DNA from: Candidatus Woesearchaeota archaeon
GTDB lineage: Archaea > Nanobdellota > Nanobdellia > Pacearchaeales > GW2011-AR1
DNA: 64,000 nt
Reading direction: 5' to 3'
NCBI GenBank assembly: GCA_964527365.1
Contig: CAZGQV010000003.1
Location: 8,668 to 72,667 of the forward strand
The notes below the pieces were generated by a model that was given only the letters and a program-made list of their open reading frames with translations, had not been told where the DNA came from and searched no databases. Below are positions 10,049 through 53,787 of this stretch, piece after piece. Every line of letters begins with the position of its first letter. Positions within the stretch are counted from its first letter, which is position 1. The position numbers and the translations under genes were made by a program.

Positions 10049-10660
10049 ATGGGAGGTAAAAATAAAATGCATGAAAATTATTGCGAACAAAAAAAAATAT
10101 TGAAAATTGGTAGTCCAGCTCCAGACTTTAATGCTGAAGCGTTTCACAAAGGACAAATTAAAAAAGTTTCTTTACAAGATTATAAAGGAAAATGGACAAT
10201 TATTTTCTTTTATCCCGCTGACTTTACATTCGTTTGTCCAACCGAATTAGGAGAAATGGCAGATAGATATGAAAAATTTAAGGAATTGGGTGCTGAAATT
10301 TTAAGTGTGAGTACAGACACTGTATTCGTACATAAAGCATGGCATGACTCATCTGAAACGATTAAAAAAATCAAATTTCCAATGGTGGCTGATCCCACAC
10401 ATAAAATTTCTTGGAATTACGAGACATTGATTCCTGAAGAAGGTGTAGCCTTAAGGGGATCATTTGTAATTGACCCTGAAGGAGTTTTGAAGGCTTATGA
10501 AATTCATGATAATTCAATTGGTAGAAATGTTGATGAATTATTAAGAAAATTGGAAGCTGCAAAGTTCACATCTGAAAATGGTGGGAAAGTTTGTCCAGCA
10601 AACTGGAAACCAGGAAAAGAAACTTTAAAGCCGGGACTTGATTTGGTAGGAAAGATTTAA
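10049..10660 (+). CDS. peroxiredoxin (2-Cys Prx, AhpC/TSA family)
   Basis: FTFVCPTEL peroxidatic Cys motif and a C-terminal resolving-Cys region GKVCPANW. Confidence 0.85.
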   Translation: MGGKNKMHENYCEQKKILKIGSPAPDFNAEAFHKGQIKKVSLQDYKGKWTIIFFYPADFTFVCPTELGEMADRYEKFKELGAEILSVSTDTVFVHKAWHDSSETIKKIKFPMVADPTHKISWNYETLIPEEGVALRGSFVIDPEGVLKAYEIHDNSIGRNVDELLRKLEAAKFTSENGGKVCPANWKPGKETLKPGLDLVGKI

Positions 10661-17131: not shown

Positions 17132-17323
17132 TTATTCTTTCTTTACTTTAACTGCTTTAAGACCTTTATCTCCAGTTTCCACTTCATATGTAACTTTATC
17201 GCCTTCACTAACTTCTACGCCTTCACCTATTTCTGACTGGTGTACGAAAACATCTTTACCATCATCTCCAGAAATAAATCCGAATCCTTTAGCATCATTG
17301 AAAAATTTTATTGTTCCTTTCAT
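17132..17323 (-). CDS. csp: cold-shock protein (CspA family)
   Basis: MKGTIKFFNDAKGFGFISGDDGKDVFVHQSEI carries RNP-1/RNP-2-like cold-shock motifs. Confidence 0.85.
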   Translation of the reverse strand: MKGTIKFFNDAKGFGFISGDDGKDVFVHQSEIGEGVEVSEGDKVTYEVETGDKGLKAVKVKKE

Positions 17324-21607: not shown

Positions 21608-21680
21608 GGCGGTTTTCGTATAGTGGTTATTACACGTGGTTGTGGTCCGCGAAACGGGGGTTCGATTCCCCCATTCCGCT
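21608..21680 (+). tRNA. tRNA-His (anticodon GUG) with genome-encoded G-1; the acceptor stem has two U.U mismatches
   Basis: Canonical T-arm GGGGG-TTCGATT-CCCCC. Anticodon arm CGTGG/TTGTGGT/CCGCG, giving anticodon GTG. D-arm GTAT/AGTGGTTA/TTAC. An extra 5' G precedes GCGGTTT. The 3' acceptor strand ATTCCGC leaves T.T mismatches at pairs 5-68 and 6-67. Confidence 0.6.
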
Positions 21681-21797
21681 TCGAATGAATTGGATGAGTG
21701 GTCAAATCTTTGATTTGATCCTCATTCCATCTTCCCCCATAATATTTTTTTCAAATAAATAAATTAAATTTATAACTAAACAATACCTAATAAAAAA

Positions 21798-22976
21798 ATG
21801 GAAACACTAAATAAAAAATCAAAGATTTCTAATTCGCCAACAAACCAAGGCGAATTAGTGAAAGGATTCAAAGACATCACAGGAATGGAAGCACAAAAAT
21901 TTGCATTAATAAGAAAAGTAGCGGAGCAAACTTTTGAAAAATACAACTTTCAAGAAATTGAAACACCAATAATTGAATACGAAGATTTCGTTAAAGGAGA
22001 AAATTCAAACGAAGAAACAATTTCAGAAATATTCAAACTAGAAGACAGAGGAAAAAGAAAACTGGCTCTAAGATATGAATTCACTTTCCAACTAAAAAGA
22101 TTAGCAAAACTACAAAAAATCCCCTTCAAAAGATTTCAAATAGGACCAGTATTTAGGGATGAACCAATAAGTAAAAATAGATTCAGGCAATTCACTCAAT
22201 GCGATATTGATACAATTGGCTCAACTCCAAAAGAAGAAGCAGAAATATTAACAGCAATAAAAGACATCTTGAAAGCCCTAAAAATTAAATCAACTATTTT
22301 TGTAAACAACAGAAGATTACTTAACGAAATATTGGAAGAACAAGGAATAAAAAATAAGCAAGAAACAATAAAAGAACTTGACAAACTAGATAAACTCTCA
22401 GAAAAAGAAGTGAAAGAGAATCTGAAAAAAATAGGAGCAGAAAAATTATTGGCTATTGTAAAACAACCAGAAGATTATTTCAAAAAGTATGAAGCTTACA
22501 AAGAAATTCTAGAACTAAAAAAATACTGTTCATCATATGGAATTAAAATAGAATTCCAACCAACACTTTCAAGAGGGCTTGCATATTACACAGGGAATGT
22601 ATTTGAAATGAAATCAGATATAAAAGAAACTATTTGTGGTGGGGGAACTTATGAAATTGAAGGAAAAGAATCAACTGGAATCTCATTCTCAATTGAAAGA
22701 TTAATGGCTGTTTCAAATATAATTGTGGGCATTGAAAAAATATTGGTAGTTTCCCTAAATGAAGATAAAAAAGCAATTCAATTATCAAAACAGCTTCGTC
22801 AACAAGGAAAAAATATATCAACATTCTTTGGAAAACCAAACAAGGCATTTGACTACGCAAAAGCTTACGGAATAAAGAAAATAATTTTTGTTGGTAAAAA
22901 AGAATGTGAAAAGAAAAGATTCATGATCAAAGATTTACAAACAGGCAAAGAAATAATTTTAACTGTTAAGAAATAA
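21798..22976 (+). CDS. hisS: histidyl-tRNA synthetase (class II aaRS)
   Basis: The motif 1 region ALIRKVAEQTFEKYNFQEIETPIIE, the motif 2 region FKRFQIGPVFRDE...RFRQFTQCDID, and a C-terminal anticodon-binding domain. It sits immediately downstream of tRNA-His. Confidence 0.75.
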   Translation: METLNKKSKISNSPTNQGELVKGFKDITGMEAQKFALIRKVAEQTFEKYNFQEIETPIIEYEDFVKGENSNEETISEIFKLEDRGKRKLALRYEFTFQLKRLAKLQKIPFKRFQIGPVFRDEPISKNRFRQFTQCDIDTIGSTPKEEAEILTAIKDILKALKIKSTIFVNNRRLLNEILEEQGIKNKQETIKELDKLDKLSEKEVKENLKKIGAEKLLAIVKQPEDYFKKYEAYKEILELKKYCSSYGIKIEFQPTLSRGLAYYTGNVFEMKSDIKETICGGGTYEIEGKESTGISFSIERLMAVSNIIVGIEKILVVSLNEDKKAIQLSKQLRQQGKNISTFFGKPNKAFDYAKAYGIKKIIFVGKKECEKKRFMIKDLQTGKEIILTVKK

Positions 22977-28574: not shown

Positions 28575-29081
28575 CTAAAGAGAACATTCATAAATTTCTG
28601 GAATACTTGATTCTAAAATATTTCCTTCTTTATCTACTCTAAATATTAGTTCGGCTGCATTTGAAGGCCTATCATTACGTCCAGCAATCCTATGAATTTT
28701 AGATGTTATTAAATAATATTCTCCTTTATCTTCAACCATATATTTATATCCCCCAGATCCCCCCTCATCGAAACTTTCAACATAAACATAATTTTGATCT
28801 TCCAATTCTCCTGAATAAGAACCCCCACAAATAACACAATGTGGATATGTTGCAGCCCCATCCAAATCTTGACAATATGATTGTATTTCTGGTTTAACTA
28901 TTTCTAAAATTTGTTCCTGATAATATTGCTCTTTTATTTCTTTTAGTTGTTCATCGGTTAAATCTAACTTATGAGAATTAGCTATGAACACATTACTTAA
29001 TAAAAACCAAATTGATATTGCTAAAACAATAATTCCAATTGTCCAATAAATTGCTCCTCTTTTCATAGGTGTTATAATCAA
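28575..29081 (-). CDS. membrane-anchored secreted hypothetical protein
   Basis: An N-terminal TM segment followed by a Cys-containing ectodomain. Confidence 0.35.
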   Translation of the reverse strand: MIITPMKRGAIYWTIGIIVLAISIWFLLSNVFIANSHKLDLTDEQLKEIKEQYYQEQILEIVKPEIQSYCQDLDGAATYPHCVICGGSYSGELEDQNYVYVESFDEGGSGGYKYMVEDKGEYYLITSKIHRIAGRNDRPSNAAELIFRVDKEGNILESSIPEIYECSL

Positions 29082-29168
29082 AAAACCTTTATAATTTTAC
29101 CGCACAAAAACAAAATCCCAGCATATCTGCACTAAATAAAAAAACTAACAATCTTACTTCCCAACTAA

Positions 29169-29512
29169 TTATTTACCAACAGTAGTATAAAACTTACTAT
29201 ATTCGTCATCGTCTTCATCAGGTTCTCGTCTTTCAAAACGTGGTCTTCCGCCTCTATCTGGCCTTTCCTTTTCTTCAGCAATACTAACTGTTATCTTTCT
29301 ACCATCCATTTCCTTTTCATGCATTTCTTCTACTGCTTTAGCTGCAGCATCTTCATCAATAAAAGTTACAAAACCAAATCCTTTACTTCGATTAGTTTCT
29401 CGGTCAGTAATAACTATAACATCTTCAATATCCCCGAATCCCGAAAACATTTTTTCCAAGTCTTCCGTCTTCAGTTTGAAATTCAAATTCCCTACAAATA
29501 TCTTTTTACTCA
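29169..29512 (-). CDS. RRM-type RNA-binding protein (RNP-1 KGFGFVTF) with an acidic/RGG-like tail
   Basis: RNP-2 KIFVGNLNF and RNP-1 KGFGFVTF. The likely start is MSKKIFVG (near 29512), preceded by a GGAGG Shine-Dalgarno about 8 nt upstream. The track ORF 29169..29591 begins in the leader. Confidence 0.75.
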
Positions 29513-29591
29513 TCTTAATTTTTTCCTCCATAAACTTTTCTCGCGAAATCGTTTCCCAATCGATTTTGTTGACTGGGAAAAGTTTTTTCAC

Positions 29592-29700
29592 AGGAAATTG
29601 CTAAACAATTTCCTTTGAATCGTAGTGAATCCAGAAGATTCACGCAGTTTCATTCTTACTTCTCAAACTCTTTTCCGAACAATAATAATAAAAAATAATA
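29592..29700 (-). promoter_or_regulatory. structured 5' leader of the RRM gene (multiple hairpins)
   Basis: On the minus strand there are perfect hairpins GTGAATC-ttctg-GATTCAC and GGAAATTG-ttta-gCAATTTCC, followed by an AGGAGG SD. Confidence 0.4.
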
Positions 29701-29721
29701 AAATTAAAAAATTAATTAAAC

Positions 29722-29985
29722 CTATTCTCTAGGTTCTCTTGGTTTAGCTTCGTTAACAGTCAATGCTCTTCCGTCTAATTCTTTTTCGTTCATTTCTGCT
29801 ACTGCTTTATCAGCATCAGCATCATTTACAAAAGTAATAAAACCGAATCCTTTTGATTTTCTGCTATCAAATTTATCAAGAATAACTGTGGCATCTTCAA
29901 TTTCTCCAAATTTTTCAAAAGCTTCTCTAAGCTCTTTTCCTCGAACTTTGAATGATAAATTACCAACAAATACTTTTTTACTCAT
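29722..29985 (-). CDS. RRM-type RNA-binding protein, paralog 2
   Basis: MSKKVFVGNLSF (RNP-2) and KGFGFITF (RNP-1). The start region, including the SD (aggaggaaaattaagATG), is nearly identical to that of paralog 1. Confidence 0.75.
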   Translation of the reverse strand: MSKKVFVGNLSFKVRGKELREAFEKFGEIEDATVILDKFDSRKSKGFGFITFVNDADADKAVAEMNEKELDGRALTVNEAKPREPRE

Positions 29986-30188
29986 CTTAATTTTCCTCCT
30001 TTCAAGCACTTTAAACATGGTCAGAGGTAGAACTCTTAATCAATTTTTACGCCGAACAGGACAAATCTTTTACAAATCAAGGCTTTATAAGTTTTTACAT
30101 AGCCCATTTATTCTCAATCTCTATTTCTAACTAAACTCAATTTATGTCCTCCAGCGGATACAGATAATTTATTTTATCAATTTCCCAC

Positions 30189-30467
30189 TCAACTAAACTC
30201 AATATATTTTCGATAAGTTCTAAGTAAATTCAAATTCTTTAATAAAAAACCACAAAACCTTTCAGCATCATTCCTTTCTTTCATAGTTGAATAATCATAA
30301 AAACTATTCAATTCCTCTTTTCCGATATCCCCCGCAGAATAAGCATTCCCTTCCGGACTCACAATCAAATAATCCTTCTCTTTACACAACTTCTTCAACT
30401 TCCAACCACAATTAAAAAATTTCTTTACCTTATTTTCTAACGAGGCTTTTCTTTGCAATTTATTCAT
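30189..30467 (-). CDS. hypothetical protein
   Basis: 92-aa ORF. Confidence 0.25.
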   Translation of the reverse strand: MNKLQRKASLENKVKKFFNCGWKLKKLCKEKDYLIVSPEGNAYSAGDIGKEELNSFYDYSTMKERNDAERFCGFLLKNLNLLRTYRKYIEFS

Positions 30468-35021: not shown

Positions 35022-35324
35022 TTATTTCATAAATTCACCAATATTCTCTTGGTAAATAATCGTTCCAGCATTTCCAAGACAATCTTCAATATTTTCAGAT
35101 TGACAACCATCAATTAATTTTCTAACTTGATCAACATGTGGCTCTTGAAGAAGAAAAACCATTACACATTTTCCGTCTTCAACCAAATTACTATCTAGAC
35201 AAAGATAATAATCATTAATTTGTGTTGCCCAAGATAAAATTGACAAAACCCCCATTATAATTAAAAAAATCCGAGCATATTTCCAATTTTTTTTAAGATA
35301 CTTAAAAAATCTTTTCTTGTTCAT
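35022..35324 (-). CDS. small membrane/secreted Cys-containing protein
   Basis: 100 aa with an N-terminal TM segment. Confidence 0.3.
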   Translation of the reverse strand: MNKKRFFKYLKKNWKYARIFLIIMGVLSILSWATQINDYYLCLDSNLVEDGKCVMVFLLQEPHVDQVRKLIDGCQSENIEDCLGNAGTIIYQENIGEFMK

Positions 35325-35619
35325 AAATCTTGTAGATAAAAATAGTATAAAACTTTACTCTTTTTTCTCAGATGTAAAAAATTCAAAATAATGACATTTA
35401 ACACAATAAAAATTAATACTTGGTCCTAATCTTTAACCAAACTAAAAATAAAATACAAAAAACAGCCATAACTCCAAAAAAAGTATATAATTTATTCTCA
35501 AAAATTTTACCAGCATATTCTGGAAATGCTACAAAAAATATAATAATTAAAGCAACCAAAGATATAACGTCCCAATATTTGTTTTCCATATTTATAATAA
35601 AAATCTTTTTTTTAAAAAC

Positions 35620-35835
35620 CTACTCTTTTTTCTCAGCTGTAAAGAATTCAGAATAATGACATTTGCCACAGTAAACTCTTTCTTTAGTTTCCATTAAGAA
35701 AATCCCCGGACCACATCTTGGACAAGTTCTTGCTCGAGTAACAGTGTCACCATTAATAGTATATTTTGTATATTTCTTACTGGTCGGTTTATTCTTATGT
35801 GGTTTCTTTCCTTTTTTTACTATTTTTTTTACCAT
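35620..35835 (-). CDS. rps27ae: 30S ribosomal protein S27ae
   Basis: A basic N-terminus plus a C4 zinc ribbon CPRCGPGIFLME...CGKCHYSEF. Confidence 0.8.
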   Translation of the reverse strand: MVKKIVKKGKKPHKNKPTSKKYTKYTINGDTVTRARTCPRCGPGIFLMETKERVYCGKCHYSEFFTAEKKE

Positions 35836-39127: not shown

Positions 39128-39810
39128 ATGAAAATGTATTAATTTTTGATGCAAGTTCATTAATCAGTTTAGCTATGAATGGTCTGCTTCCAGAATTAAG
39201 AGAATTAAAAAAAATATTTCCAGGAAAATTTATTATTCCTGCAGAAGTTAAATGGGAAATAGTTGGAAGACCGATAAACATTAAAAGATTTGAACTTGAA
39301 GCATTAAAATTAAATGAGCTCATAGAAAATAAAATATTAGAATCCCCTGATTCAGTTGGAATAAATGATAAAAAAATATCTGAAGAAACAACAAAATTAC
39401 TTAACATAGCAAACAATACTTTTTTTGATAGGGGACAAAAAGAAATTCATTTGATTGATTTGGGAGAAACTGCCTGTCTTGCATTATCAAAAATGTTGAA
39501 TGATAAAGGAATAAAAAACGTTTTATTAATTGATGAGAGAACAACAAGGATGCTTTGTGAAAAACCTGAAAATTTAAAAAAATTATTGCAAAAAAAATTG
39601 CACACGAGAATAGATGTAAAAAAAGAAAATTTAAAATATTTTAAAGGAATGAAGATAGCAAGATCAACTGAATTAATTTATATTGCATACAAAAAAGGAG
39701 TTGTAAGAATAAAAAATAATAAAATTTTAGATGCCTTGCTTTATGCTTTAAAATTCAAAGGTTGTGCAATTTCCACTGAAGAAATTAAAAAAATAAAAAA
39801 ATTGGGTTAA
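39124..39810 (+). CDS. hypothetical protein, possibly PIN-like; third gene of the operon
   Basis: 228 aa. The N-terminus VLIFDASSLISLA has an Asp in a PIN-like beta-strand context, with later acidic residues (IDERT). The start overlaps the upstream stop by 4 nt. Confidence 0.3.
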   Translation: MNENVLIFDASSLISLAMNGLLPELRELKKIFPGKFIIPAEVKWEIVGRPINIKRFELEALKLNELIENKILESPDSVGINDKKISEETTKLLNIANNTFFDRGQKEIHLIDLGETACLALSKMLNDKGIKNVLLIDERTTRMLCEKPENLKKLLQKKLHTRIDVKKENLKYFKGMKIARSTELIYIAYKKGVVRIKNNKILDALLYALKFKGCAISTEEIKKIKKLG

Positions 39811-42800
39811 TCAAAAATCTTTTGTATATCTGTCAAATTCATACCTCGAACTCCACCATCTTCTTCAACAATAATATCTTTCACTAATTTCTTTTTACTT
39901 TCTTGAAGCTTCAAAATCTTTTCTTCAATGGTATCTTCAGCAATCATCTTATAAACAAATACCTTATTCTTTTGACCAATTCTATGTGCCCGGTCCATTG
40001 CTTGCATTTCAACTGCTGGATTCCACCAAGGATCTATAATAAATACATAATCTGCACCAGTTAAATTGAGTCCAAGTCCTCCAGCTTTAATGCTAATTAA
40101 AAAAGCTTCAGCATCCTTCGAATCTTGAAATCCATTGACAACTTTCTCTCTATTTATTGTTTTTCCATCTAAATAAGAATATTTTAATTTCTTTTTCTCC
40201 ATTTCTTGTCTAACTAGTGTTAACATTTTTACAAAAGAAGAAAACACTAAAACCTTATGTCCTTCAGTCATAACCTTCTCAATTTCCGTAATCAAAAGAT
40301 CAAACTTCACACTTCCTCCTTCATAACTAGAATCAATCATTTTTGGATGCAAACAAATTTGACGAAGTTTTGTCAAGCCTTCCAAAATTTTCATTCTAGA
40401 TTTATTTAAACCATTTTCCTTAATGGAAGTATTAATTTCATGTCGATAATATTCTTTCCAACTTTCATAAACTTCCTTTTCAGATTCATTAAATTTACTA
40501 CGTAAAATAACTTCTGTTTTTTCCGGAAGTTCATTAGAAATAACTGATTTAGTACGACGAAGTAAAAAAGGTGATACCATTTTTTTCAAAGATTCAGAAA
40601 CTTCTTTGTCATGATTTCTTTCGATTGGCAAAACAAAATCCTCTTTAAAAAAATCATATCCTCCCAAGTAACCAGGATTCAAAAAATTAAACAAACTCCA
40701 TAATTCCATTAAATTATTTTGTATTGGTGTTCCAGAAAGAACTAATTTATTTTTACCTTGAAGAGAATACACACTTTTTGCACTAAGACTAAAAGGATTT
40801 TTAATAACATGTGCTTCATCAAGAACAACATATTCAAAAATCTTATCAGAAAATAATTCTAAATCATTTCTTAAAACGCCATAAGTTGTAATAATAACAT
40901 CATTTTTATCCATAATTTCTTTAAATTTATTATTAGAATTTTTTGTTTTTGAAGAACTCCGATTTAAACCATGATGAATATATGTTTTCAAATTTGGTGT
41001 AAATTTTTCAATTTCCCTCTTCCAATTAAATACAAGAGACGTTGGAACAATAACCAAAGAAGGAATCTTTACTTTTTCATCTTTTATTTTCTGAAGAACG
41101 CAAAGTGTTTGAACTGTTTTTCCAAGTCCCATATCATCAGCAAGAATTCCATTAAAATTAAAATCTCTCAAAAAATTAATCCAATCATATCCTTCTTTTT
41201 GGTACTTTCTCAATTTAGCATTAACTCCTTTAGAAATTTTTGTTTCTCTAATTTTTTTAAAATCCTTGAATTCTTTTATCATTTTTTTTATTTTTGGCGC
41301 TAAAGAAGCATTACGGTCAAGTTCAATAATTGAATTAAGAATAGTAATATGATTTTTAGATAATTTTAAATTATTTTTTTCTAAATTTATAAATCCTGAA
41401 AAAGCTCTCAAATTATGAATCCAGTTTTTAGGAATAACACCTTTCTTTCCTTCACCTAAATCAACAAACCTTTTATTTTTAAAAATTGAATTTAAAACTT
41501 CATCAATGGTCACTTCATCCGATCCAAATTTAACCGAACCCTTAATATTAAACCAATCATTTGACTCAGTAACATTCATTTTCATAATTGGTTTATTCTT
41601 TATAACACGAAAATTAAATATCTTTTCTTCACCTAAAACCTTTATTCCTTCAACAGAAATCAAAGGAACAGTCTTTGTTACAAAGTCAATTAAATCTCCT
41701 TCTAAAACAAATTCATCAAGCTCTTCATGTGTAACAACCGAGTAAGAATTCAAAATCTCAACCACCCTATCTTCAAATTCTAAATCTCTTTCAACATCAT
41801 ACAAAGAATTTTTCTCAATTATAATAATTTCTTTATTTTTAGAAAAATAATTTATCTCACGACCAGCATAATTAAATCTTAATTTAATTCTTATACTTGC
41901 ACCAGATTTTTCCAAATATAATTTGGCAATAGGAGACACAACTTTATTTTCCCGTTTTAAATCATCTGAAACCTTAAATTGAAACCCATCTAAAATTTTT
42001 TGATAATATTTTGAGAAAAATTTCTTTAATTCATTCTCACTAAATTCTAATTTTTTAGGGAATCTAATAATGCTTCTCACAACTTGTAAATTATCACTTT
42101 CTTGATGTCCATAAAAACACCTATTTTCAATATCAAAAACCCATAAACTTGTACTACCAATCTCCAAAAGTTTCATACGAAGTAAACTAGATTTTTTATT
42201 ACCACAAATAAAAAAAGGTTCAAGAGCATATTTCTCATTTTTTTTCTTTTTTATTTCCCAAGAAATTTTGAAATCCTCTTTATTAAAAACAGCCCCTAAA
42301 ATAATTTCTTGTTCCTCAAAATATAAATCTCTTAAAACCGGCATCATTAAATCAGTATTAACATCATAAAAACTACTTTTACTAAATCCAGCAGAAGAAT
42401 AACCCATTCCAAAATTATCTCCTTCATGCATATATGTTAATACTCGCCTAACATTAGAACTAATATTCCATTTTAAAAAATTAAAATCCCTTCCAAAAAA
42501 CTTTATTGGTGCACTATAACTCCCATTTTTTTTTATTATTCCTTTTTGAACTTTCAATAACTGCTCTCCCAAACCAAAATCTTCAAAATTAAAATAAACC
42601 ATGTTCTTTCTTTCTTCTAAATTTTTTTCTGGAAATAATTTTCTTAAATAAGCAAGTCCATTTTTTGATTTTTCAATCTCATTTTCTTTTTTTTCTTCAT
42701 CCAATTCTAAATTTTTAAAATCATTATCTTCTTTTTTTAATAATTTATAAATTAAAGTTGATCCAGCATGACTACATCCCTTACCTTTTTCACGATAAGC

Positions 42801-43058
42801 ACAATTACAAAAAGCTTCTATTTTACCGTCTACAATTTCCAAATCAACTTCATAACTTTTCTTTCCCACTTTCAATAATAAATAAACCTCATTCTTAGAA
42901 TCAAAACTATTACGAATAATTTCTAAATTATCATATTCATCAATCGCTTGTTTCCAAAATTTCTCATGAACGAACCCCAAAAAAATTTCAATCTGTTTTT
43001 TTGAAAGTCCAAGTTTAGATAATCTTCCTTCAATATCCGTATTCTTCAATTTTGCCAT
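39807..43058 (-). CDS. SNF2-family helicase/ATPase with an N-terminal SWIM zinc finger
   Basis: 1083 aa. SWIM CNCAYREKGKGCSH at the N-terminus. Helicase motif I LADDMGLGKT, motif II DEAH, and C-terminal helicase motifs through QAMDRAHRIGQ. Confidence 0.85.
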   Translation of the reverse strand: MAKLKNTDIEGRLSKLGLSKKQIEIFLGFVHEKFWKQAIDEYDNLEIIRNSFDSKNEVYLLLKVGKKSYEVDLEIVDGKIEAFCNCAYREKGKGCSHAGSTLIYKLLKKEDNDFKNLELDEEKKENEIEKSKNGLAYLRKLFPEKNLEERKNMVYFNFEDFGLGEQLLKVQKGIIKKNGSYSAPIKFFGRDFNFLKWNISSNVRRVLTYMHEGDNFGMGYSSAGFSKSSFYDVNTDLMMPVLRDLYFEEQEIILGAVFNKEDFKISWEIKKKKNEKYALEPFFICGNKKSSLLRMKLLEIGSTSLWVFDIENRCFYGHQESDNLQVVRSIIRFPKKLEFSENELKKFFSKYYQKILDGFQFKVSDDLKRENKVVSPIAKLYLEKSGASIRIKLRFNYAGREINYFSKNKEIIIIEKNSLYDVERDLEFEDRVVEILNSYSVVTHEELDEFVLEGDLIDFVTKTVPLISVEGIKVLGEEKIFNFRVIKNKPIMKMNVTESNDWFNIKGSVKFGSDEVTIDEVLNSIFKNKRFVDLGEGKKGVIPKNWIHNLRAFSGFINLEKNNLKLSKNHITILNSIIELDRNASLAPKIKKMIKEFKDFKKIRETKISKGVNAKLRKYQKEGYDWINFLRDFNFNGILADDMGLGKTVQTLCVLQKIKDEKVKIPSLVIVPTSLVFNWKREIEKFTPNLKTYIHHGLNRSSSKTKNSNNKFKEIMDKNDVIITTYGVLRNDLELFSDKIFEYVVLDEAHVIKNPFSLSAKSVYSLQGKNKLVLSGTPIQNNLMELWSLFNFLNPGYLGGYDFFKEDFVLPIERNHDKEVSESLKKMVSPFLLRRTKSVISNELPEKTEVILRSKFNESEKEVYESWKEYYRHEINTSIKENGLNKSRMKILEGLTKLRQICLHPKMIDSSYEGGSVKFDLLITEIEKVMTEGHKVLVFSSFVKMLTLVRQEMEKKKLKYSYLDGKTINREKVVNGFQDSKDAEAFLISIKAGGLGLNLTGADYVFIIDPWWNPAVEMQAMDRAHRIGQKNKVFVYKMIAEDTIEEKILKLQESKKKLVKDIIVEEDGGVRGMNLTDIQKIFD

Positions 43059-43984: not shown

Positions 43985-46543
43985 TCATTCAACATCTTCA
44001 ACACTTTCAACAACTTTAACCACATCACTAACCTTATCTCCCTCATGAAGATTCACAATTCTAACTCCTTGAGCTGCACGACCCATGACTCGGATATTAT
44101 CTAAACTAGTTCTAATAACCATTCCTTTTTGAGTTGTCAAAATTATTGAATCTGTATCTTTAACAGAAACAGTATTAACAACTTGCCCTGTTTTTTCAGT
44201 AACCTTCAAATTAATTACTCCTTTACCTGCCCTAGCAGTTTTCCTATAATCTTCAATGGCTGTTCTTTTCCCATAACCTTTTTTAGTAATTGTAAAAATA
44301 GCTTCAGTTCCAAGTACCTCTAAAGAAACAACTTTATCTCCAGGACCTAATTTAATTCCAGTTACCCCATAACTTGCACGACCCATGGGCCTTACTTCAT
44401 TAGAATTAAATCTGATTGCTTTTCCATCTTTTGTTGCTAAAGAAACTTCTTGACCTTCTTTTATTATTTCAACTCCGATCAAAGAATCACTTCCATCTCC
44501 AGGAAGATTAATTGCTTTAATACCAGAAACTCTTGGTTTTGAGAAATAATTTAATGAAATTCTTTTAATCATTCCATTCTTTGTTGCCATAATTAAATAA
44601 TCATCAAAATTCTTTACAGAAAGAACATTTGTAATTACTTCTTCTTTAAGTCCTAAAATATTTACAATTGCTTTTCCTTTACCATATCTTTCAGCTTCAG
44701 GCAAATCATATGTTTTCAACCAAAGAACCCTTCCCCTTGAAGTGAAGAACATTAAATAATCATGAGTTGAACAAGTCAATAATTGTTTTGTAAAATCACC
44801 CGTTGCAAGACCACTTCCAATTACTCCTTTCCCTCCTCGCTTTTGTTCTTTATATGTTTGAACATCCATTCTTTTTACATAACCTTTTTCGGTAATTGAA
44901 ACAACAACTTCTTTTTCTTGAACCAAATCTTTTTCAGAAATAGAACCAATAGCCCTTTTCATAACTTGGGTTCTACGAGCATCGCCATATTTATCTTTTA
45001 ATTCTTTAACTTCTTTTTTAATAATTTTCAAAACTTCCTGAATATTATCTAATATCTTTTGATATTTGGAAATATTTTTAGTTAATTCTTCTGATTCAGC
45101 TTTTAACTTACCATGTTCCATTGAAGTTAATTGCCTTAGTTTAGTTTCCAAAATTGCTTTGACTTGATTTACAGTAAAATTGAATTTCTCTTTCAATTTT
45201 TTAGTAGGTTCAGCATCATACCTCACAATTTTTATAACTTCATCAATATTATCTAATGCAGTTAATAATCCTTCAACAATTTCTTGTCTCAATTTTGCTT
45301 TTCTCAATTCATATTGCGTTCTTCTTGTAATGATAATTTTTCTATGAGAAACATAGTTTTCTAAAACATCTCGAATTCCTAAAACTCGAGGCTTTCCTCC
45401 AACCAAAGCTAAAAAACTAACATTAAAAGAATCTTGAAGACGAGTATATTTGAATAATGCATTAATAACAAATTGTGAATCGACACTTTTTTTCAATTCA
45501 ATTACAATCCTAATTTTGCCTTTATTTGATTCATCTCGTAAATCACTAATATCTCTTAATTTTTTATCCCTAACTAAAGTTGCAATTTGTGTAATTAAAG
45601 TGGATTTATTTACCATATAAGGAATTTCTGTAATAACAAGAGAATTTTTTTTCTTTCCCTCTTCAACAGAAATCTTTCCACGCATAATCATTCTCCCTCG
45701 ACCAGTTTTATATAATTCAATCATATCTCCTTGAACCTGTCCTCCCGTCGGAAAATCTGGACCTTGAACAGTGTCTTTAACTAATTCTTCAACAGTCACT
45801 TCTGGATTTTCAAGATACATGTCAATAGCATCACATACTTCACGTAAATTATGTGGGGGTATGTTTGTAGCCATTCCAACAGCAATACCAGTAGCACCAT
45901 TAAGCATTAAAGCAGGCAACTTACCTGGAAGCAAAGATGGTTCTTTTAATGAATTATCAAAATTAGGAGTAAATTCAACAGTATCCTTATCAAGATCCTC
46001 CAAAAGCTCTTCGGCAAGTTTTTCCATCTTGGTTTCAGTATATCTATATGCAGCAGCAGGATCCCCATCGATAGAACCGAAATTACCTTGGCCAAATACT
46101 AAAGGATATCTTAAAGAAAAATCTTGAGCCATACGAACCATGGCCTCATAAACACTAGAATCTCCGTGGGGATGATATTTACCAATAACGTCTCCCACAA
46201 CTCTAGCTGATTTTTTAGTTTGAGTATTTGGTTTCAAACCCATTTGTTGCATTGCATAAAGAATTCTTCTCTGTACTGGTTTCATCCCATCTTCAATTGC
46301 AGGAATTGCTCTTGAAACAATTACACTCATAGCATAATCAAGATAAGATTTTTTCATTTCAGTAGTAACTTCAGCATTAATTACTCCCTTTTCTTCGGGA
46401 AACTTAGCTCCAAAATCTTCTTCAACTTGAATTTCCCCGGGAACTTCCTCTACTTGATTCATTTGGCTTTCTTCCTTAATTTCAGAATCATCTAATTCCA
46501 TTCCTTCAATTTCCTTTTCTATTTTATTTTCTTCATCTGTCAT
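43985..46543 (-). CDS. gyrA: DNA gyrase subunit A
   Basis: 852 aa. The active-site Tyr region RYTE(T)KM, the GyrA-box-like motifs, and C-terminal beta-pinwheel repeats (GRGGKG). Confidence 0.9.
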
Positions 46544-46586
46544 TTTTTATATTTATTAGCATTTATTTATTTTTTTTAAATAAACT

Positions 46587-46850
46587 TTAAGCTACTTCTT
46601 CTCCTTTGTTATCCAAATATTGCATAAATTCGTCTTCAGTTAATTCATCTTCCTTAATTTCTTTTCCCTTAAAGCCACATTTACTACATTCCCAAACACC
46701 AATTTCCCCCATCTTAACTTGAACTTCATCCGAATTGCATTCAGGACATCTACGAACCTTAAAAGTTTTAATTTTTTTTTCCTTTGATTTCTTTTCTTCT
46801 TCACCATTCAATATCCAATCTGGAGTTTTTAATTTACTTTTTTTTGCCAT
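46587..46850 (-). CDS. zinc-ribbon small protein
   Basis: CPECNSD...CSKCGF, over 87 aa. Confidence 0.35.
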   Translation of the reverse strand: MAKKSKLKTPDWILNGEEEKKSKEKKIKTFKVRRCPECNSDEVQVKMGEIGVWECSKCGFKGKEIKEDELTEDEFMQYLDNKGEEVA

Positions 46851-46855
46851 TTTAA

Positions 46856-47092
46856 TTACTCAACCTTAACAAATCTTTTAACAGATTCTCCTTTTTTGTA
46901 TTTTACACCCACATATTCACAATCTTTTTCAAAAACTTTATCTCCAACAAATTCCTCAATAGATTTTTTAAAATCCATTCCAACCTGAAAACCGCTATGT
47001 TCATTCAAATTGATATAATAAACTTCTCCACCTTCAACTTTCATAATTTCATAATCATTCCCCTTGAAATGTCTATATTTTCCAAGTTCCAT
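46856..47092 (-). CDS. DUF1653 small protein
   Basis: The likely start is MELGKYRHFKGNDYEI (the YRHFKGN signature). The track ORF 46856..47158 extends into gyrB. Confidence 0.45.
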   Translation of the reverse strand: MELGKYRHFKGNDYEIMKVEGGEVYYINLNEHSGFQVGMDFKKSIEEFVGDKVFEKDCEYVGVKYKKGESVKRFVKVE

Positions 47093-47093
47093 T

Positions 47094-48998
<1,905 letters not shown>

Positions 48999-53394: not shown

Positions 53395-53787
53395 TTACCT
53401 TCGTTTCTTTTTAACTACTTTCTTCTTGACAGCTTTTCTCTTAACTACTTTCTTTTTAACAACCTTCTTTTTCACAGCAGCTTTTCTCTTAACTACTTTG
53501 TTTTTAACAACCTTCTTTTTAACAACCTTCTTTTTCACAGCAGCTTTTCTCTTAACTACTTTGTTTTTAACAACCTTCTTTTTAACAACCTTCTTTTTCA
53601 CAGGTTTCTTCTTAGTAGCTTTCTTCTTTTTACCACCTCTAGCCATTTTAGCTTCACATACATTTCCTTTTCCGTCAACGTAATAAAGATGTCCTGGCTT
53701 TCTGTCAACAACATTTTTAACAATTATTTTTCCCATTATTAACTTCCTCCTTTTTACTAACTTATTTTTATGTTCCATAAAGAACAT
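53395..53787 (-). CDS. Lys/Val-rich tandem-repeat protein with a small N-terminal globular domain (putative nucleic-acid-binding or chromatin-like protein)
   Basis: N-terminus MGKIIVKNVVDRKPGHLYYVDGKGNVCEAKMARGG, followed by (KKKVVKKKVVKNKVVKRKAAV)n. This is encoded by a perfect 63-bp tandem DNA repeat. Confidence 0.5.
   Translation of the reverse strand: MFFMEHKNKLVKRRKLIMGKIIVKNVVDRKPGHLYYVDGKGNVCEAKMARGGKKKKATKKKPVKKKVVKKKVVKNKVVKRKAAVKKKVVKKKVVKNKVVKRKAAVKKKVVKKKVVKRKAVKKKVVKKKRR
53410..53615. repeat. 63-bp perfect tandem repeat (2 full copies at 53473..53535 and 53536..53598, plus flanking partial copies) inside a CDS
   Basis: Unit cacagcagcttttctcttaactactttgtttttaacaaccttctttttaacaaccttcttttt. 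It contains 15-bp sub-repeats aacaaccttcttttt. Confidence 0.9.

What the first reader, a model, noticed from the sequence alone, without database searches (positions are those of the whole stretch)
29169..30200. Tandem pair of RRM (RNP-1/RNP-2) RNA-binding protein genes with Shine-Dalgarno sites and long structured leaders
Two adjacent paralogs, about 88 aa of RRM plus charged tails, carry canonical KGFGFVTF / KGFGFITF RNP-1 motifs. I believe such glycine-rich RRM proteins are typical of bacteria and eukaryotes and uncommon in archaea. Unlike most genes here, which appear leaderless, both have a GGAGG SD 8 nt before the ATG. Both also have leaders of about 75 to 150 nt with perfect hairpins. 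The upstream gene's leader contains a direct repeat aactaaactcaat x2 and a TATA-like box about 100 nt upstream of the ATG. This resembles cold-shock or RNA-chaperone regulons; a CspA gene is also present at 17132.
Basis: partly seen in the sequence, partly recalled or inferred. Interest (0 to 1): 0.55.

Follow-up and report, generated by a model that had tools for sequence, protein, structure and literature searches.

The report
Conserved RRM RNA-binding gene pair in DPANN archaeon
Two adjacent genes for small RNA-binding (RRM) proteins are real and form a gene pair conserved across Woesearchaeota-type archaea; unlike their mostly leaderless neighbours they carry ribosome-binding sites and leaders, but one "structured leader" is a strain-specific insertion and any cold-shock-like regulation is only inferred.

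Summary
Both genes exist, on the minus strand. Gene A is 29722-29985 (87 aa) and gene B is 29169-29513 (114 aa). Both are clear Pfam RRM_1 proteins. The window is from a 29% GC DPANN-type archaeon. About two thirds of its genes have a TATA box about 29 nt before the ATG, so they are leaderless. A and B instead carry GGAGG, 9 and 11 nt before the ATG.

A and B belong to two distinct orthologous groups that sit in tandem in many Woesearchaeota-type MAGs. B has a conserved non-glycine tail (RPRFERRE..EYSKFYTT). RRM proteins are common in this archaeal clade, not rare.

Gene A has a conserved BRE/TATA 100-113 nt upstream, which predicts a 77-nt leader. That leader is better conserved than synonymous sites, but it is not unusually stable. 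SD sequestration is not statistically supported.

Gene B's three hairpins fold well (z = -4.4). However, they lie in a ~121-nt insertion found only in this strain.

The direct repeat lies upstream of the promoter and is not conserved.

The closest functional analogue is the Bacteroides/cyanobacterial single-RRM Rbp proteins, which have long 5' UTRs, feedback control and a role in cold adaptation. This is a new archaeal member of a known kind, of moderate interest.

The parts
29722..29985 (-). Gene A (type A RRM protein, 87 aa, MSKKVFVGNL..KGFGFITF..; no tail)
   Evidence: Pfam RRM_1 E 1.5e-21. Start fixed by the SD and by family N-termini. The upstream in-frame ATG at 30018 is not conserved in frame in relatives.
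29169..29513 (-). Gene B (type B RRM protein, 114 aa, with conserved C-terminal tail RPRFERRE..DEYSKFYTTVGK)
   Evidence: Pfam RRM_1 E 6.4e-24. Tail motif is conserved in alignments A1 and A5. The AF2 model shows a beta1-alpha1-beta2-beta3-alpha2-beta4 fold with block-mean pLDDT 72-82 and a disordered tail. The 140-aa GTG-extended gene call (P0001) is not supported by the family.
29995..30000 (-). Shine-Dalgarno AGGAGG of gene A, with a 9-nt spacer to the ATG
   Evidence: Sequence. Invariant in 7 lineages together with the spacer AAAATTAAG.
29986..30062 (-). Predicted 77-nt 5' leader of gene A, starting GUCCUGUUC. Contains invariant blocks GUUCUACCUC (30024-30033) and GAAAGGAGGAAAAUUAAG.
   Evidence: TSS is inferred from the 22-nt TATA-to-start spacing seen in the window's leaderless genes. 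TTGTCC sits at the same spacing in 8 lineages. Leader identity is 0.71-0.95, against 0.61-0.81 for synonymous codons. CM R1 hits only these leaders.
30085..30098 (-). BRE/TATA promoter of gene A (GTAAAAAC-TTATAA)
   Evidence: Matches the window's promoter consensus. Conserved in window, L173, L168, L001, L008, L175, L176 and L040.
30129..30145 (.). Direct repeat copy 1 (AACTAAACTCAATTTAT on the + strand), about 40 nt upstream of the TATA box of gene A
   Evidence: Not conserved in relatives. Significance is marginal.
30191..30207 (.). Direct repeat copy 2, overlapping the stop codon of the upstream 92-aa ORF (30189-30467, minus strand)
29676..29721 (-). A/T-rich tract after gene A, with two T6 runs. 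Likely an archaeal oligo-T terminator and/or the gene B promoter region (TTTAAT motifs).
   Evidence: Sequence. Equivalent T-rich tracts occur in relatives, most with a T run of 5 or more.
29532..29652 (-). Strain-specific insertion of ~121 nt carrying three stable hairpins (H1 29616-29652, H2 29587-29619, H3 29546-29586) plus a small UUUC-GCGA-GAAA hairpin
   Evidence: Fold z = -4.4. Inverted repeats I2-I4. Absent from L173, L168, L169, L001, L008, L005 and L171. Not repeated in the window or the fetched loci. No Rfam match below E = 1.
29525..29529 (-). Shine-Dalgarno GGAGG of gene B, with an 11-nt spacer to the ATG
   Evidence: Sequence. GGAG(G) is conserved at -10 to -16 in all 11 type B lineages examined.
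29138..29144 (-). T7 run about 25 nt after the gene B stop codon; probable terminator
   Evidence: Sequence. Inference from archaeal oligo-T termination (established knowledge).
17132..17323 (-). Cold-shock-domain gene (63 aa) with GGGAGG SD and a TATA about 120 nt upstream. Context only, not contiguous with the pair.
   Evidence: NCBIfam Csp-family hits.

Best explanation
A and B are two anciently diverged paralogues of single-domain RRM proteins that bind single-stranded RNA. They are kept as an A-then-B tandem in Woesearchaeota-type DPANN archaea. [quoted passage not shown]

Most genes of this genome are transcribed as leaderless mRNAs. Both RRM genes are instead translated from leadered mRNAs through a GGAGG Shine-Dalgarno site.

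Gene A has its own BRE/TATA promoter at -113 to -100. It gives a 77-nt leader whose sequence is under purifying selection. The leader probably serves as a cis-regulatory site for feedback by the RRM proteins and/or control of SD accessibility. Candidate pairing partners for the SD are the 5'-terminal UCCU and the internal CCUCY.

Gene B is translated from its conserved SD, either on its own short-leader transcript or on read-through from A. In this strain a ~121-nt insertion has placed three stable hairpins in front of B's SD. This is a lineage-specific change whose function, if any, is unknown.

Shown: gene identity, family structure, synteny, SD conservation, promoter conservation and spacing, leader conservation, and the insertion. 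Inferred: TSS positions, RNA binding, feedback or temperature control.
For: - RRM_1 hits and a predicted RRM fold.
- Two orthologous groups, with a conserved tail in B.
- Tandem A-to-B arrangement in the window, L001-3, L005-8, L168-171 and L173-186.
- The window is archaeal: aIF2-gamma, S6e, S24e, Rpb7-like and Dph6.
- Leaderless majority: TATA peak at -30 to -27 and few SDs.
- SD is conserved in all A and B orthologues and in most other DPANN RRM genes.
- Gene A's TATA plus 22-nt spacer plus GTCC is conserved.
- Leader identity exceeds synonymous-site identity and upstream-flank identity in nearly all of the 21 lineage pairs, by 0.09 and 0.18 on average; three window-versus-L008-group pairs are roughly tied.
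- The CCUC(Y):GGAGG helix is kept in 7 of 7 lineages. The local hairpin RGAG-UUCUAC-CUCY has one A:U to G:C covarying pair.
- Bacterial precedent: rbp 5' UTRs of 122-155 nt, negative auto- and cross-regulation, and cold adaptation redundant with Csp (PMC13370968). Cyanobacterial Rbp paralogues differ in their C-terminal regions (PMC9333190).
Against: - There are no transcript data, so the TSS and leader are inferred.
- The gene A leader is not thermodynamically unusual (z about +0.6 to -0.4).
- The probability that the SD is paired is not higher than in shuffles for most lineages. It is low in several other DPANN RRM leaders.
- Only one covarying pair was found, and it amounts to a single phylogenetic event.
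- The 77-nt motif is confined to a narrow clade. Type A genes in L040, L018, L005, L171 and L081 have other, shorter leaders.
- Conservation could act on DNA (promoter or operator) rather than on RNA.
- A TTTAAA at -30 of gene A could drive a leaderless transcript.
- The hairpin block is not conserved.
Confidence: 0.6

Rival explanations
1. Nothing regulatory is present. An SD plus a leader is simply how this organism expresses a few abundant small nucleic-acid-binding or stress proteins. The conserved sequence upstream of gene A is promoter/operator DNA and translation-initiation context. The hairpin block is a neutral insertion, for example a remnant of a small mobile element.
For: - The other SD-led genes in the window are Csp, a Lys-rich histone-H1-like protein and AhpC.
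- Leader folding is not significant and the SD-pairing test is not significant.
- The hairpin block is unique to this strain and has no relatives.
- The invariant stretch includes the SD, the spacer and the start.
Against: - The invariant block GUUCUACCUC lies 38-47 nt upstream of the ATG. That is far from both the TATA box and the SD, yet it is conserved above synonymous-site level.
- The bacterial precedent for 5' UTR-mediated feedback (PMC13370968).
- Three consecutive stable hairpins are unusual for this window. Perfect stems of 8 bp or more occur at about chance frequency elsewhere.
Confidence: 0.3
2. The pair, along with Csp and AhpC, was acquired from bacteria, probably CPR/Patescibacteria. 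The genes keep bacterial-style SD-dependent translation signals for that reason.
For: - The nearest non-archaeal homologues are CPR bacteria at about 50-58% identity.
- Two Gracilibacteria sequences nest next to the type A clade in an NJ tree.
- RRM_1 and CSD proteins are, from general knowledge, rare in cultivated archaea.
Against: - A and B each form large, deep, archaeal-only clades. Type A has at least 120 clusters.
- Promoters are archaeal BRE/TATA with the host's spacing.
- Synteny is conserved within archaea.
- Any transfer must therefore be ancient and its direction is unresolved. The tree rests on about 90 columns with no bootstrap.
Confidence: 0.25
3. The leaders are RNA thermometers or cold-shock-type switches, making A, B and Csp a temperature-responsive regulon.
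For: - Csp, A and B all have an SD plus a long upstream region.
- Short anti-SD complementarity is present: UCCU or CCUCY in A, and UCCCA:UGGGA in Csp.
Against: - No alternative-structure covariation was found.
- SD pairing is not above chance.
- The csp, A and B leaders share no common sequence motif.
- Nothing can be said about temperature from sequence alone.
Confidence: 0.15

Closest known systems
Bacteroides RRM-1 RNA-binding proteins RbpA/RbpB/RbpC (NCBIfam NF058537 'Rbp_regulator')
   Same: - Single RRM_1 domain of about 80 aa, with or without a short unstructured tail.
- Several paralogues per genome.
- Leadered mRNAs.
- Co-occurrence with a single Csp.
- Best NCBIfam hit for both A and B (92.5 and 93.7 bits).
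- Feedback regulation through the 5' UTR and a cold-adaptation role are documented for the Bacteroides proteins (PMC13370968, PMC11697453).
   Different: - The scores fall below the family's 100-bit cut-off.
- The host is an archaeon with BRE/TATA promoters and mostly leaderless mRNAs.
- The predicted leader is 77 nt, against 122-155 nt.
- The A/B tandem and the B tail motif are specific to the archaeal clade.
- No functional data exist for these genes.
Cyanobacterial Rbp proteins (Rbp1 with a Gly-rich tail, Rbp2 with no tail, Rbp3 with a distinct tail)
   Same: - Small single-RRM paralogues that are distinguished mainly by their C-terminal regions (PMC9333190).
- Rbp3 associates with ribosomes and mRNA 3' ends (PMC12232666).
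- The pattern of A with no tail and B with a distinct conserved tail mirrors Rbp2 and Rbp3.
   Different: - Neither A nor B has a glycine-rich tail.
- The B tail motif (RPRFERRE..EYSKFYTT) is different.
- The host is archaeal.
Chlorobi-RRM RNA motif (Rfam RF01697)
   Same: A candidate cis-regulatory RNA located upstream of RRM-protein genes (PMC2864571).
   Different: An E-value-threshold Rfam scan of 29000-30400 gave no match to it. The sequence and proposed structure are different, and it comes from a bacterial lineage.
E. coli cspA-type long 5' UTR with autoregulation
   Same: A small nucleic-acid chaperone gene with a long leader and feedback control (as summarised in PMC13370968). The window's own Csp gene shows the same layout.
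   Different: - The protein fold is different.
- No cold-box or thermosensor structure can be identified here.
- Leader folding is not significant.

Membership tests
Pfam RRM_1 (PF00076) single-domain RNA-binding proteins | Domain score above the gathering cut-off (20.7 bits) | tested here: met
   76.4 bits for A and 84.0 bits for B.
Pfam RRM_1 (PF00076) single-domain RNA-binding proteins | RNP-1 octamer and RNP-2 hexamer with aromatic residues | tested here: met
   KGFGFITF and KGFGFVTF; VFVGNL and IFVGNL. These are invariant in alignment A1.
Pfam RRM_1 (PF00076) single-domain RNA-binding proteins | beta1-alpha1-beta2-beta3-alpha2-beta4 fold | tested here: met
   The AF2 model of B has E4-10, H16-23, E29-35, E45-51, H54-64 and E75-78, with block-mean pLDDT of 72-82 in the domain. 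This is a prediction only.
NCBIfam NF058537 Rbp_regulator (bacterial RRM regulators) | Score at or above the curated cut-off of 100 bits | tested here: not met
   92.5 bits (A) and 93.7 bits (B). Close relatives, but not members by the curated threshold.
Glycine-rich RNA-binding proteins (GRP / CIRP / cyanobacterial class I Rbp) | Glycine-rich (RGG/GGY) C-terminal region | tested here: not met
   A ends ..KPREPRE. B's tail is acidic/basic with two glycines. Gly-rich tails do occur in other DPANN RRM proteins: L037, L066, L069, L071, L084.
Chlorobi-RRM RNA motif (RF01697) and any other Rfam family | Covariance-model match | tested here: not met
   No RF01697 hit. The only hits have E of 1.8 or more, to unrelated families. 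The gathering-threshold scan of the whole window found only a tRNA.
SD-led (leadered) archaeal mRNAs | GGAGG-type motif 5-12 nt upstream of the start codon, conserved among orthologues | tested here: met
   Complementarity to this organism's 16S rRNA 3' end could not be checked, because there is no rRNA in the window.
SD-led (leadered) archaeal mRNAs | Transcription start upstream of the SD | not testable with these tools
   Only inferred, from TATA position and spacing.
Structured cis-regulatory leader (riboswitch / thermometer-like) | Conserved secondary structure with covariation | tested here: inconclusive
   Gene A has a 5-bp SD helix with no compensatory change, one covarying pair in the local hairpin, fold z near 0 and a non-significant SD-pairing test. 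Gene B's hairpins are stable but not conserved.
Cold-shock regulon | Induction on temperature downshift | not testable with these tools
   No expression data are available.

The most novel reading that the evidence does not exclude
The A/B pair could be a DPANN-specific post-transcriptional control module. In this reading, protein A (and/or B) binds the invariant GUUCUACCUC(C/U) element of its own leader. In the L008-type lineages this element reads GGAGUUCUACCUCCU, which resembles the anti-SD 3' tail of archaeal 16S rRNA (GGAUCACCUCCU, recalled from memory). The proteins would then be ribosome-associated factors that recognise the 16S 3' end, with autogenous control by rRNA mimicry. That would link SD-dependent initiation to an RRM factor in organisms that otherwise translate leaderless mRNAs.
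Probability: 0.07. Interest if true: 0.75.

Novelty: new member of a known kind. Interest (0 to 1): 0.4.

Why it matters
Small-genome DPANN archaea are uncultivated, and almost nothing is known about their post-transcriptional regulation. Three results stand out:
- A bacterial-type pair of RRM proteins is conserved in tandem across many Woesearchaeota-type MAGs.
- In this window these genes, together with Csp, AhpC and a lysine-rich protein, are among the few with Shine-Dalgarno sites in an otherwise leaderless gene set.
- One of them carries a leader conserved beyond neutral expectation.

Together these give concrete candidates for RNA chaperones and feedback elements in these organisms. They also offer a natural case of leaderless and SD-dependent initiation coexisting in one genome.

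The result also corrects automated gene calls. The 140-aa and 98-aa N-terminal extensions are not supported by the family.

Tried and rejected
- **Rfam.** The gathering-threshold scan of the window and the E-value scan of the locus found no known RNA family.
- **Repeated element.** I tested whether the hairpin block is a repeated element. It has no other copy in the window and none in the 186 fetched loci. Hairpins with perfect stems of 8 bp or more are not enriched genome-wide.
- **Metagenome scan.** It added nothing for the A/B family.
- **Viral-contig scan.** The scan for the conserved start region found nothing.
- **Covariance model.** The CM of the gene A leader found no instance beyond the sequences it was built from, apart from one weak hit (L116, E = 0.16).
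- **SD-sequestration hypothesis.** Compared with shuffles, it was not significant. I therefore downgraded it from mechanism to possibility.
- **Leader motifs elsewhere.** Searching the window for GAGTTCTACCTC and TTGTCCTGTTCGG gave only chance-level matches. There is no evidence for a wider regulon.
- **Tail docking.** The AF2 model predicts B's tail to be disordered, so no fold search was run.
- **Upstream ORF.** The conserved ATGTT(T)A in the gene A leader could mark an upstream ORF or an N-terminal extension. The reading frame relative to gene A is not conserved in the nucleotide alignment, and by manual translation of the aligned leaders the encoded peptide is not conserved either. I rejected it as coding.
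- **Direct repeat as operator.** The repeat is not conserved and is statistically marginal.
Full report
**What is there.** The finding lies on the minus strand.
- Gene A runs from 29985 to 29722 (87 aa, MSKKVFVGNLSF..KGFGFITF..).
- Gene B runs from 29513 to 29169 (114 aa, MSKKIFVGNLNF..KGFGFVTF.., followed by a 30-aa charged tail).
- Both are unambiguous Pfam RRM_1 proteins, with E 1.5e-21 and 6.4e-24. They are 54% identical to each other.
- An AlphaFold model of B gives the canonical beta1-alpha1-beta2-beta3-alpha2-beta4 fold and a disordered tail.
- The closest solved relatives are eukaryotic RRMs and one 97-aa "RNA-binding protein", 7jly.
- The best NCBIfam model is the bacterial "Rbp_regulator" NF058537. 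Both proteins score 92-94 bits, just under its 100-bit cut-off.
- Neither protein is glycine-rich.

**Host.** The window is 26-33% GC. It encodes aIF2-gamma, ribosomal proteins S6e and S24e, an Rpb7-like subunit, diphthamide synthase, an HTH_10 regulator and a YGR210-type GTPase, along with gyrase A/B. It is therefore archaeal. The closest loci with names are Candidatus Woesearchaeota / Nanoarchaeota MAGs.

**Family structure and distribution.** Homology searches show that A and B are not a recent local duplication. They represent two orthologous groups (alignment A1).
- Type A is 84-99 aa, with the signature RGKELR..DATVILDKFD.RKSKGFGF. It has at least 120 protein clusters at 63% identity or more. 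All come from metagenomes or MAGs, and the named ones are "archaeon" or "Nanoarchaeota archaeon".
- Type B is about 110 aa and carries a conserved C-terminal motif, RPRFERRE..(D/E)EYSK(F/Y)Y(S/T)T.
- The A-then-B tandem recurs in every closely related contig recovered: L001-3, L005-8, L168-171 and L173-186. Intergenic distances there are 61-187 nt. Only L004 has the two genes split, by 3 kb.
- Wider synteny (Dph6, UDG-like, GNAT, HAD, a ~90-aa ORF, then A and B) is shared with L168 and the P0005 contig.
- A GTDB-wide scan returned RRM genes in at least 17 Woese-, Pace- or Nanoarchaeota MAGs among the top 80 loci. Some of these have glycine-rich or acidic tails. The same scan returned many CPR and other bacteria.
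- In a neighbour-joining tree of about 90 domain sequences, types A and B form neighbouring archaeal clades. A third archaeal clade lies nearby, and a few Gracilibacteria sequences are interleaved (no bootstrap, so only indicative).
- RRM proteins are thus common in this archaeal lineage.

**Leaderless background and the SD exceptions.** I took 68 gene starts in the window and searched upstream for TATA-like hexamers. They pile up sharply at -30 to -27 relative to the ATG, with about 44 hits there against roughly 1 per position elsewhere. The consensus is aaaaCTTTATAAa followed by 22 nt and then ATG. This is the signature of leaderless transcripts. SD-like motifs are rare. The clear SD-led genes are:
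- RRM A (AGGAGG, 9-nt spacer)
- RRM B (GGAGG, 11-nt spacer)
- the cold-shock-domain gene at 17132-17323 (GGGAGG)
- AhpC at 10067
- a lysine-rich repeat protein at 53395-53736

GGAG(G) is present upstream of every type A and type B orthologue examined, except the type A gene of L004, and upstream of most other DPANN RRM genes. Promoter-like elements usually lie 60-115 nt upstream of those genes.

**Gene A upstream region.**
- A BRE/TATA element (GTAAAAAC-TTATAA, window 30098-30085) matches the window's promoter consensus. It is conserved in window, L173, L168, L001, L008, L175, L176 and L040.
- In each of these it is followed after exactly 22 nt by GTCC. By analogy with the leaderless genes, transcription should start at G 30062. 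This gives a 77-nt leader.
- The leader is more conserved than neutral sites. Across 21 lineage pairs, leader identity is 0.71-0.95. Synonymous-codon identity within gene A is 0.61-0.81, and the flank upstream of the TSS is 0.54-0.79. The leader exceeds both in nearly every pair; three window-versus-L008-group pairs are roughly tied.
- The invariant blocks are the 5' end GUC, GUUCUACCUC (30033-30024) and GAAAGGAGGAAAAUUAAG.

Structure evidence for this leader is weak.
- RNAalifold finds only a 5-bp helix pairing CCUC(C/U) with the SD, and it has no compensatory change.
- An alternative local hairpin, RGAG-UUCUAC-CUCY, shows one A:U to G:C covariation. It is split 3 sequences to 3 with one broken pair, which amounts to a single evolutionary event.
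- Single-sequence folds are no more stable than shuffles (z +0.6 to -0.4).
- The probability that the SD is paired exceeds shuffles convincingly in only 2 of 12 type A lineages. It is low in several other DPANN RRM leaders.
- A covariance model of the leader hits only the narrow clade it was built from. More distant type A genes have different, shorter leaders of about 23-35 nt, some with 5'-end UCCU:AGGA pairing.

I conclude that the gene A leader region is functional. Whether it acts as RNA structure, as a single-stranded protein-binding site or as DNA is unresolved. A TTTAAA at -30 could additionally drive a leaderless transcript.

**Gene B upstream region.** The 208-nt A-B spacer folds far better than shuffles, at -51.8 kcal/mol with z = -4.4. 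It forms three adjacent hairpins with stems of 7-10 bp. Alignment with relatives shows that these hairpins lie in a ~121-nt insertion (about 29532-29652). The insertion is present only in the window and in L174, which is the same organism. L173, L168, L169, L001 and L008 have spacers of 61-89 nt, and L005 and L171 have longer spacers (187 and 122 nt) that lack the hairpin block; all contain a T-rich tract, TATA-like elements and the SD. The block has no other copy in the window or in the fetched loci, and no Rfam match. The observation of a "long structured leader" is therefore real, but it is not a conserved property of the gene. Its function could be a stability, processing or translation-modulating element, or a neutral remnant; this is open. 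No TATA-like motif lies within 60 nt of B's ATG in the window. B is therefore probably expressed from the A/T-rich tract just after gene A, giving a leader of about 165-175 nt, or by read-through from A.

**Direct repeat.** The repeat AACTAAACTCAAT(T/A)TAT occurs at 30129 and 30191. It lies upstream of the TATA box. One copy overlaps the stop codon of the 92-aa upstream ORF. It is not conserved in L173, L168 or L001. Exact 13-mers repeated within 300 nt occur at about 10 places in the window, against about 3 expected by chance. I treat the repeat as unproven.

**Comparison with known systems.** The closest analogues are bacterial single-RRM proteins.
- In Bacteroides, RbpA, RbpB and RbpC have 5' UTRs of 122-155 nt. 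They show negative auto- and cross-regulation at transcriptional and post-transcriptional levels. [quoted passage not shown] RbpB is a global RNA binder (PMC11697453).
- Cyanobacterial Rbp paralogues differ mainly in their C-terminal regions (PMC9333190). Rbp3 associates with ribosomes (PMC12232666).
- A cis-regulatory motif upstream of RRM genes is known in Chlorobi (RF01697; PMC2864571), but it does not match here.
- I found no paper describing RRM proteins of DPANN archaea.

**Verdict.** This is a genuine, conserved pair of archaeal RRM genes with SD-dependent, leadered expression in a leaderless genome. Gene A carries a candidate cis-regulatory leader. Gene B's hairpin block is strain-specific. 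I classify it as a new (archaeal) member of a known kind of system. Interest is moderate, at 0.4.

Noticed in passing
window 53395-53736 (-): A 113-aa protein with a ~35-aa N-terminal domain followed by Lys/Val-rich repeats (KKKVVKKKVVKNKVVKRKAAV)n. The repeats are encoded by DNA tandem repeats at 53411-53590. A strong SD (AAAGGAGG) sits 9 nt before the ATG. There is a weak histone-H1-like NCBIfam hit. It is possibly a chromatin or nucleic-acid-binding protein.
   Followed up: partly
window 17132-17323 (-), 10067-10660 (+), 53395-53736 (-): Besides the two RRM genes, the clear SD-led genes in this otherwise leaderless window are Csp, AhpC and the Lys-rich protein. SD-plus-leader seems reserved for a small class of probably abundant proteins. 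The Csp leader contains UCCCA..UGGGAGG complementarity.
   Followed up: partly
window, 68 gene starts: A very sharp promoter signature is present. TATA-like hexamers start at -30 to -27 from the ATG in about two thirds of genes (consensus aaaaCTTTATAAa, 22 nt, ATG). This implies predominantly leaderless mRNAs in this DPANN archaeon.
   Followed up: yes
window 35313-35410 and 35578-35675: A 98-nt direct repeat at 73% identity. It looks like a partial duplicate of the 3' end of the eS31/S27ae-like zinc-ribbon gene (35620-35835, minus strand), and it sits upstream of the next ORF.
   Followed up: partly
window 29514-29591 and 29986-30018 (-): Automated gene calls extend gene B to a GTG (140 aa, P0001) and gene A to an upstream ATG (98 aa). 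Neither extension is conserved in the family, and the SD sites point to the MSKK starts.
   Followed up: yes
window 30189-30467 (-): A 92-aa ORF with no family match sits directly upstream of gene A. A counterpart of similar size occupies the same position in L168 (88 aa) and in the P0005 contig (99 aa). No oligo-T run separates it from gene A, so read-through into A is possible.
   Followed up: partly
L173, L168, L001, L005, L172 (upstream of type B genes); window 30010-30015: Several type B orthologues have a TATA-like hexamer at -27 to -29, the leaderless position, with the GGAGG lying between it and the ATG. Gene A in the window has TTTAAA at -30. This may indicate dual promoters or dual initiation modes, or it may just reflect A/T-rich leaders.
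   Followed up: partly
L032 2471-3297: Another Woesearchaeota MAG carries a different tandem pair of RRM genes whose ~100-nt upstream regions are nearly identical. This is an independent recent duplication that included the leader.
   Followed up: no
window 21608-21682 and 21798-22976 (+): tRNA-His lies immediately upstream of the histidyl-tRNA synthetase gene.
   Followed up: no
window 39807-43058 (-), 43985-48983 (-): A 1083-aa SNF2 helicase with the 'bacterial SNF2 helicase associated' domain, and DNA gyrase A and B genes. These are bacterial-type genes in this archaeal window.
   Followed up: no
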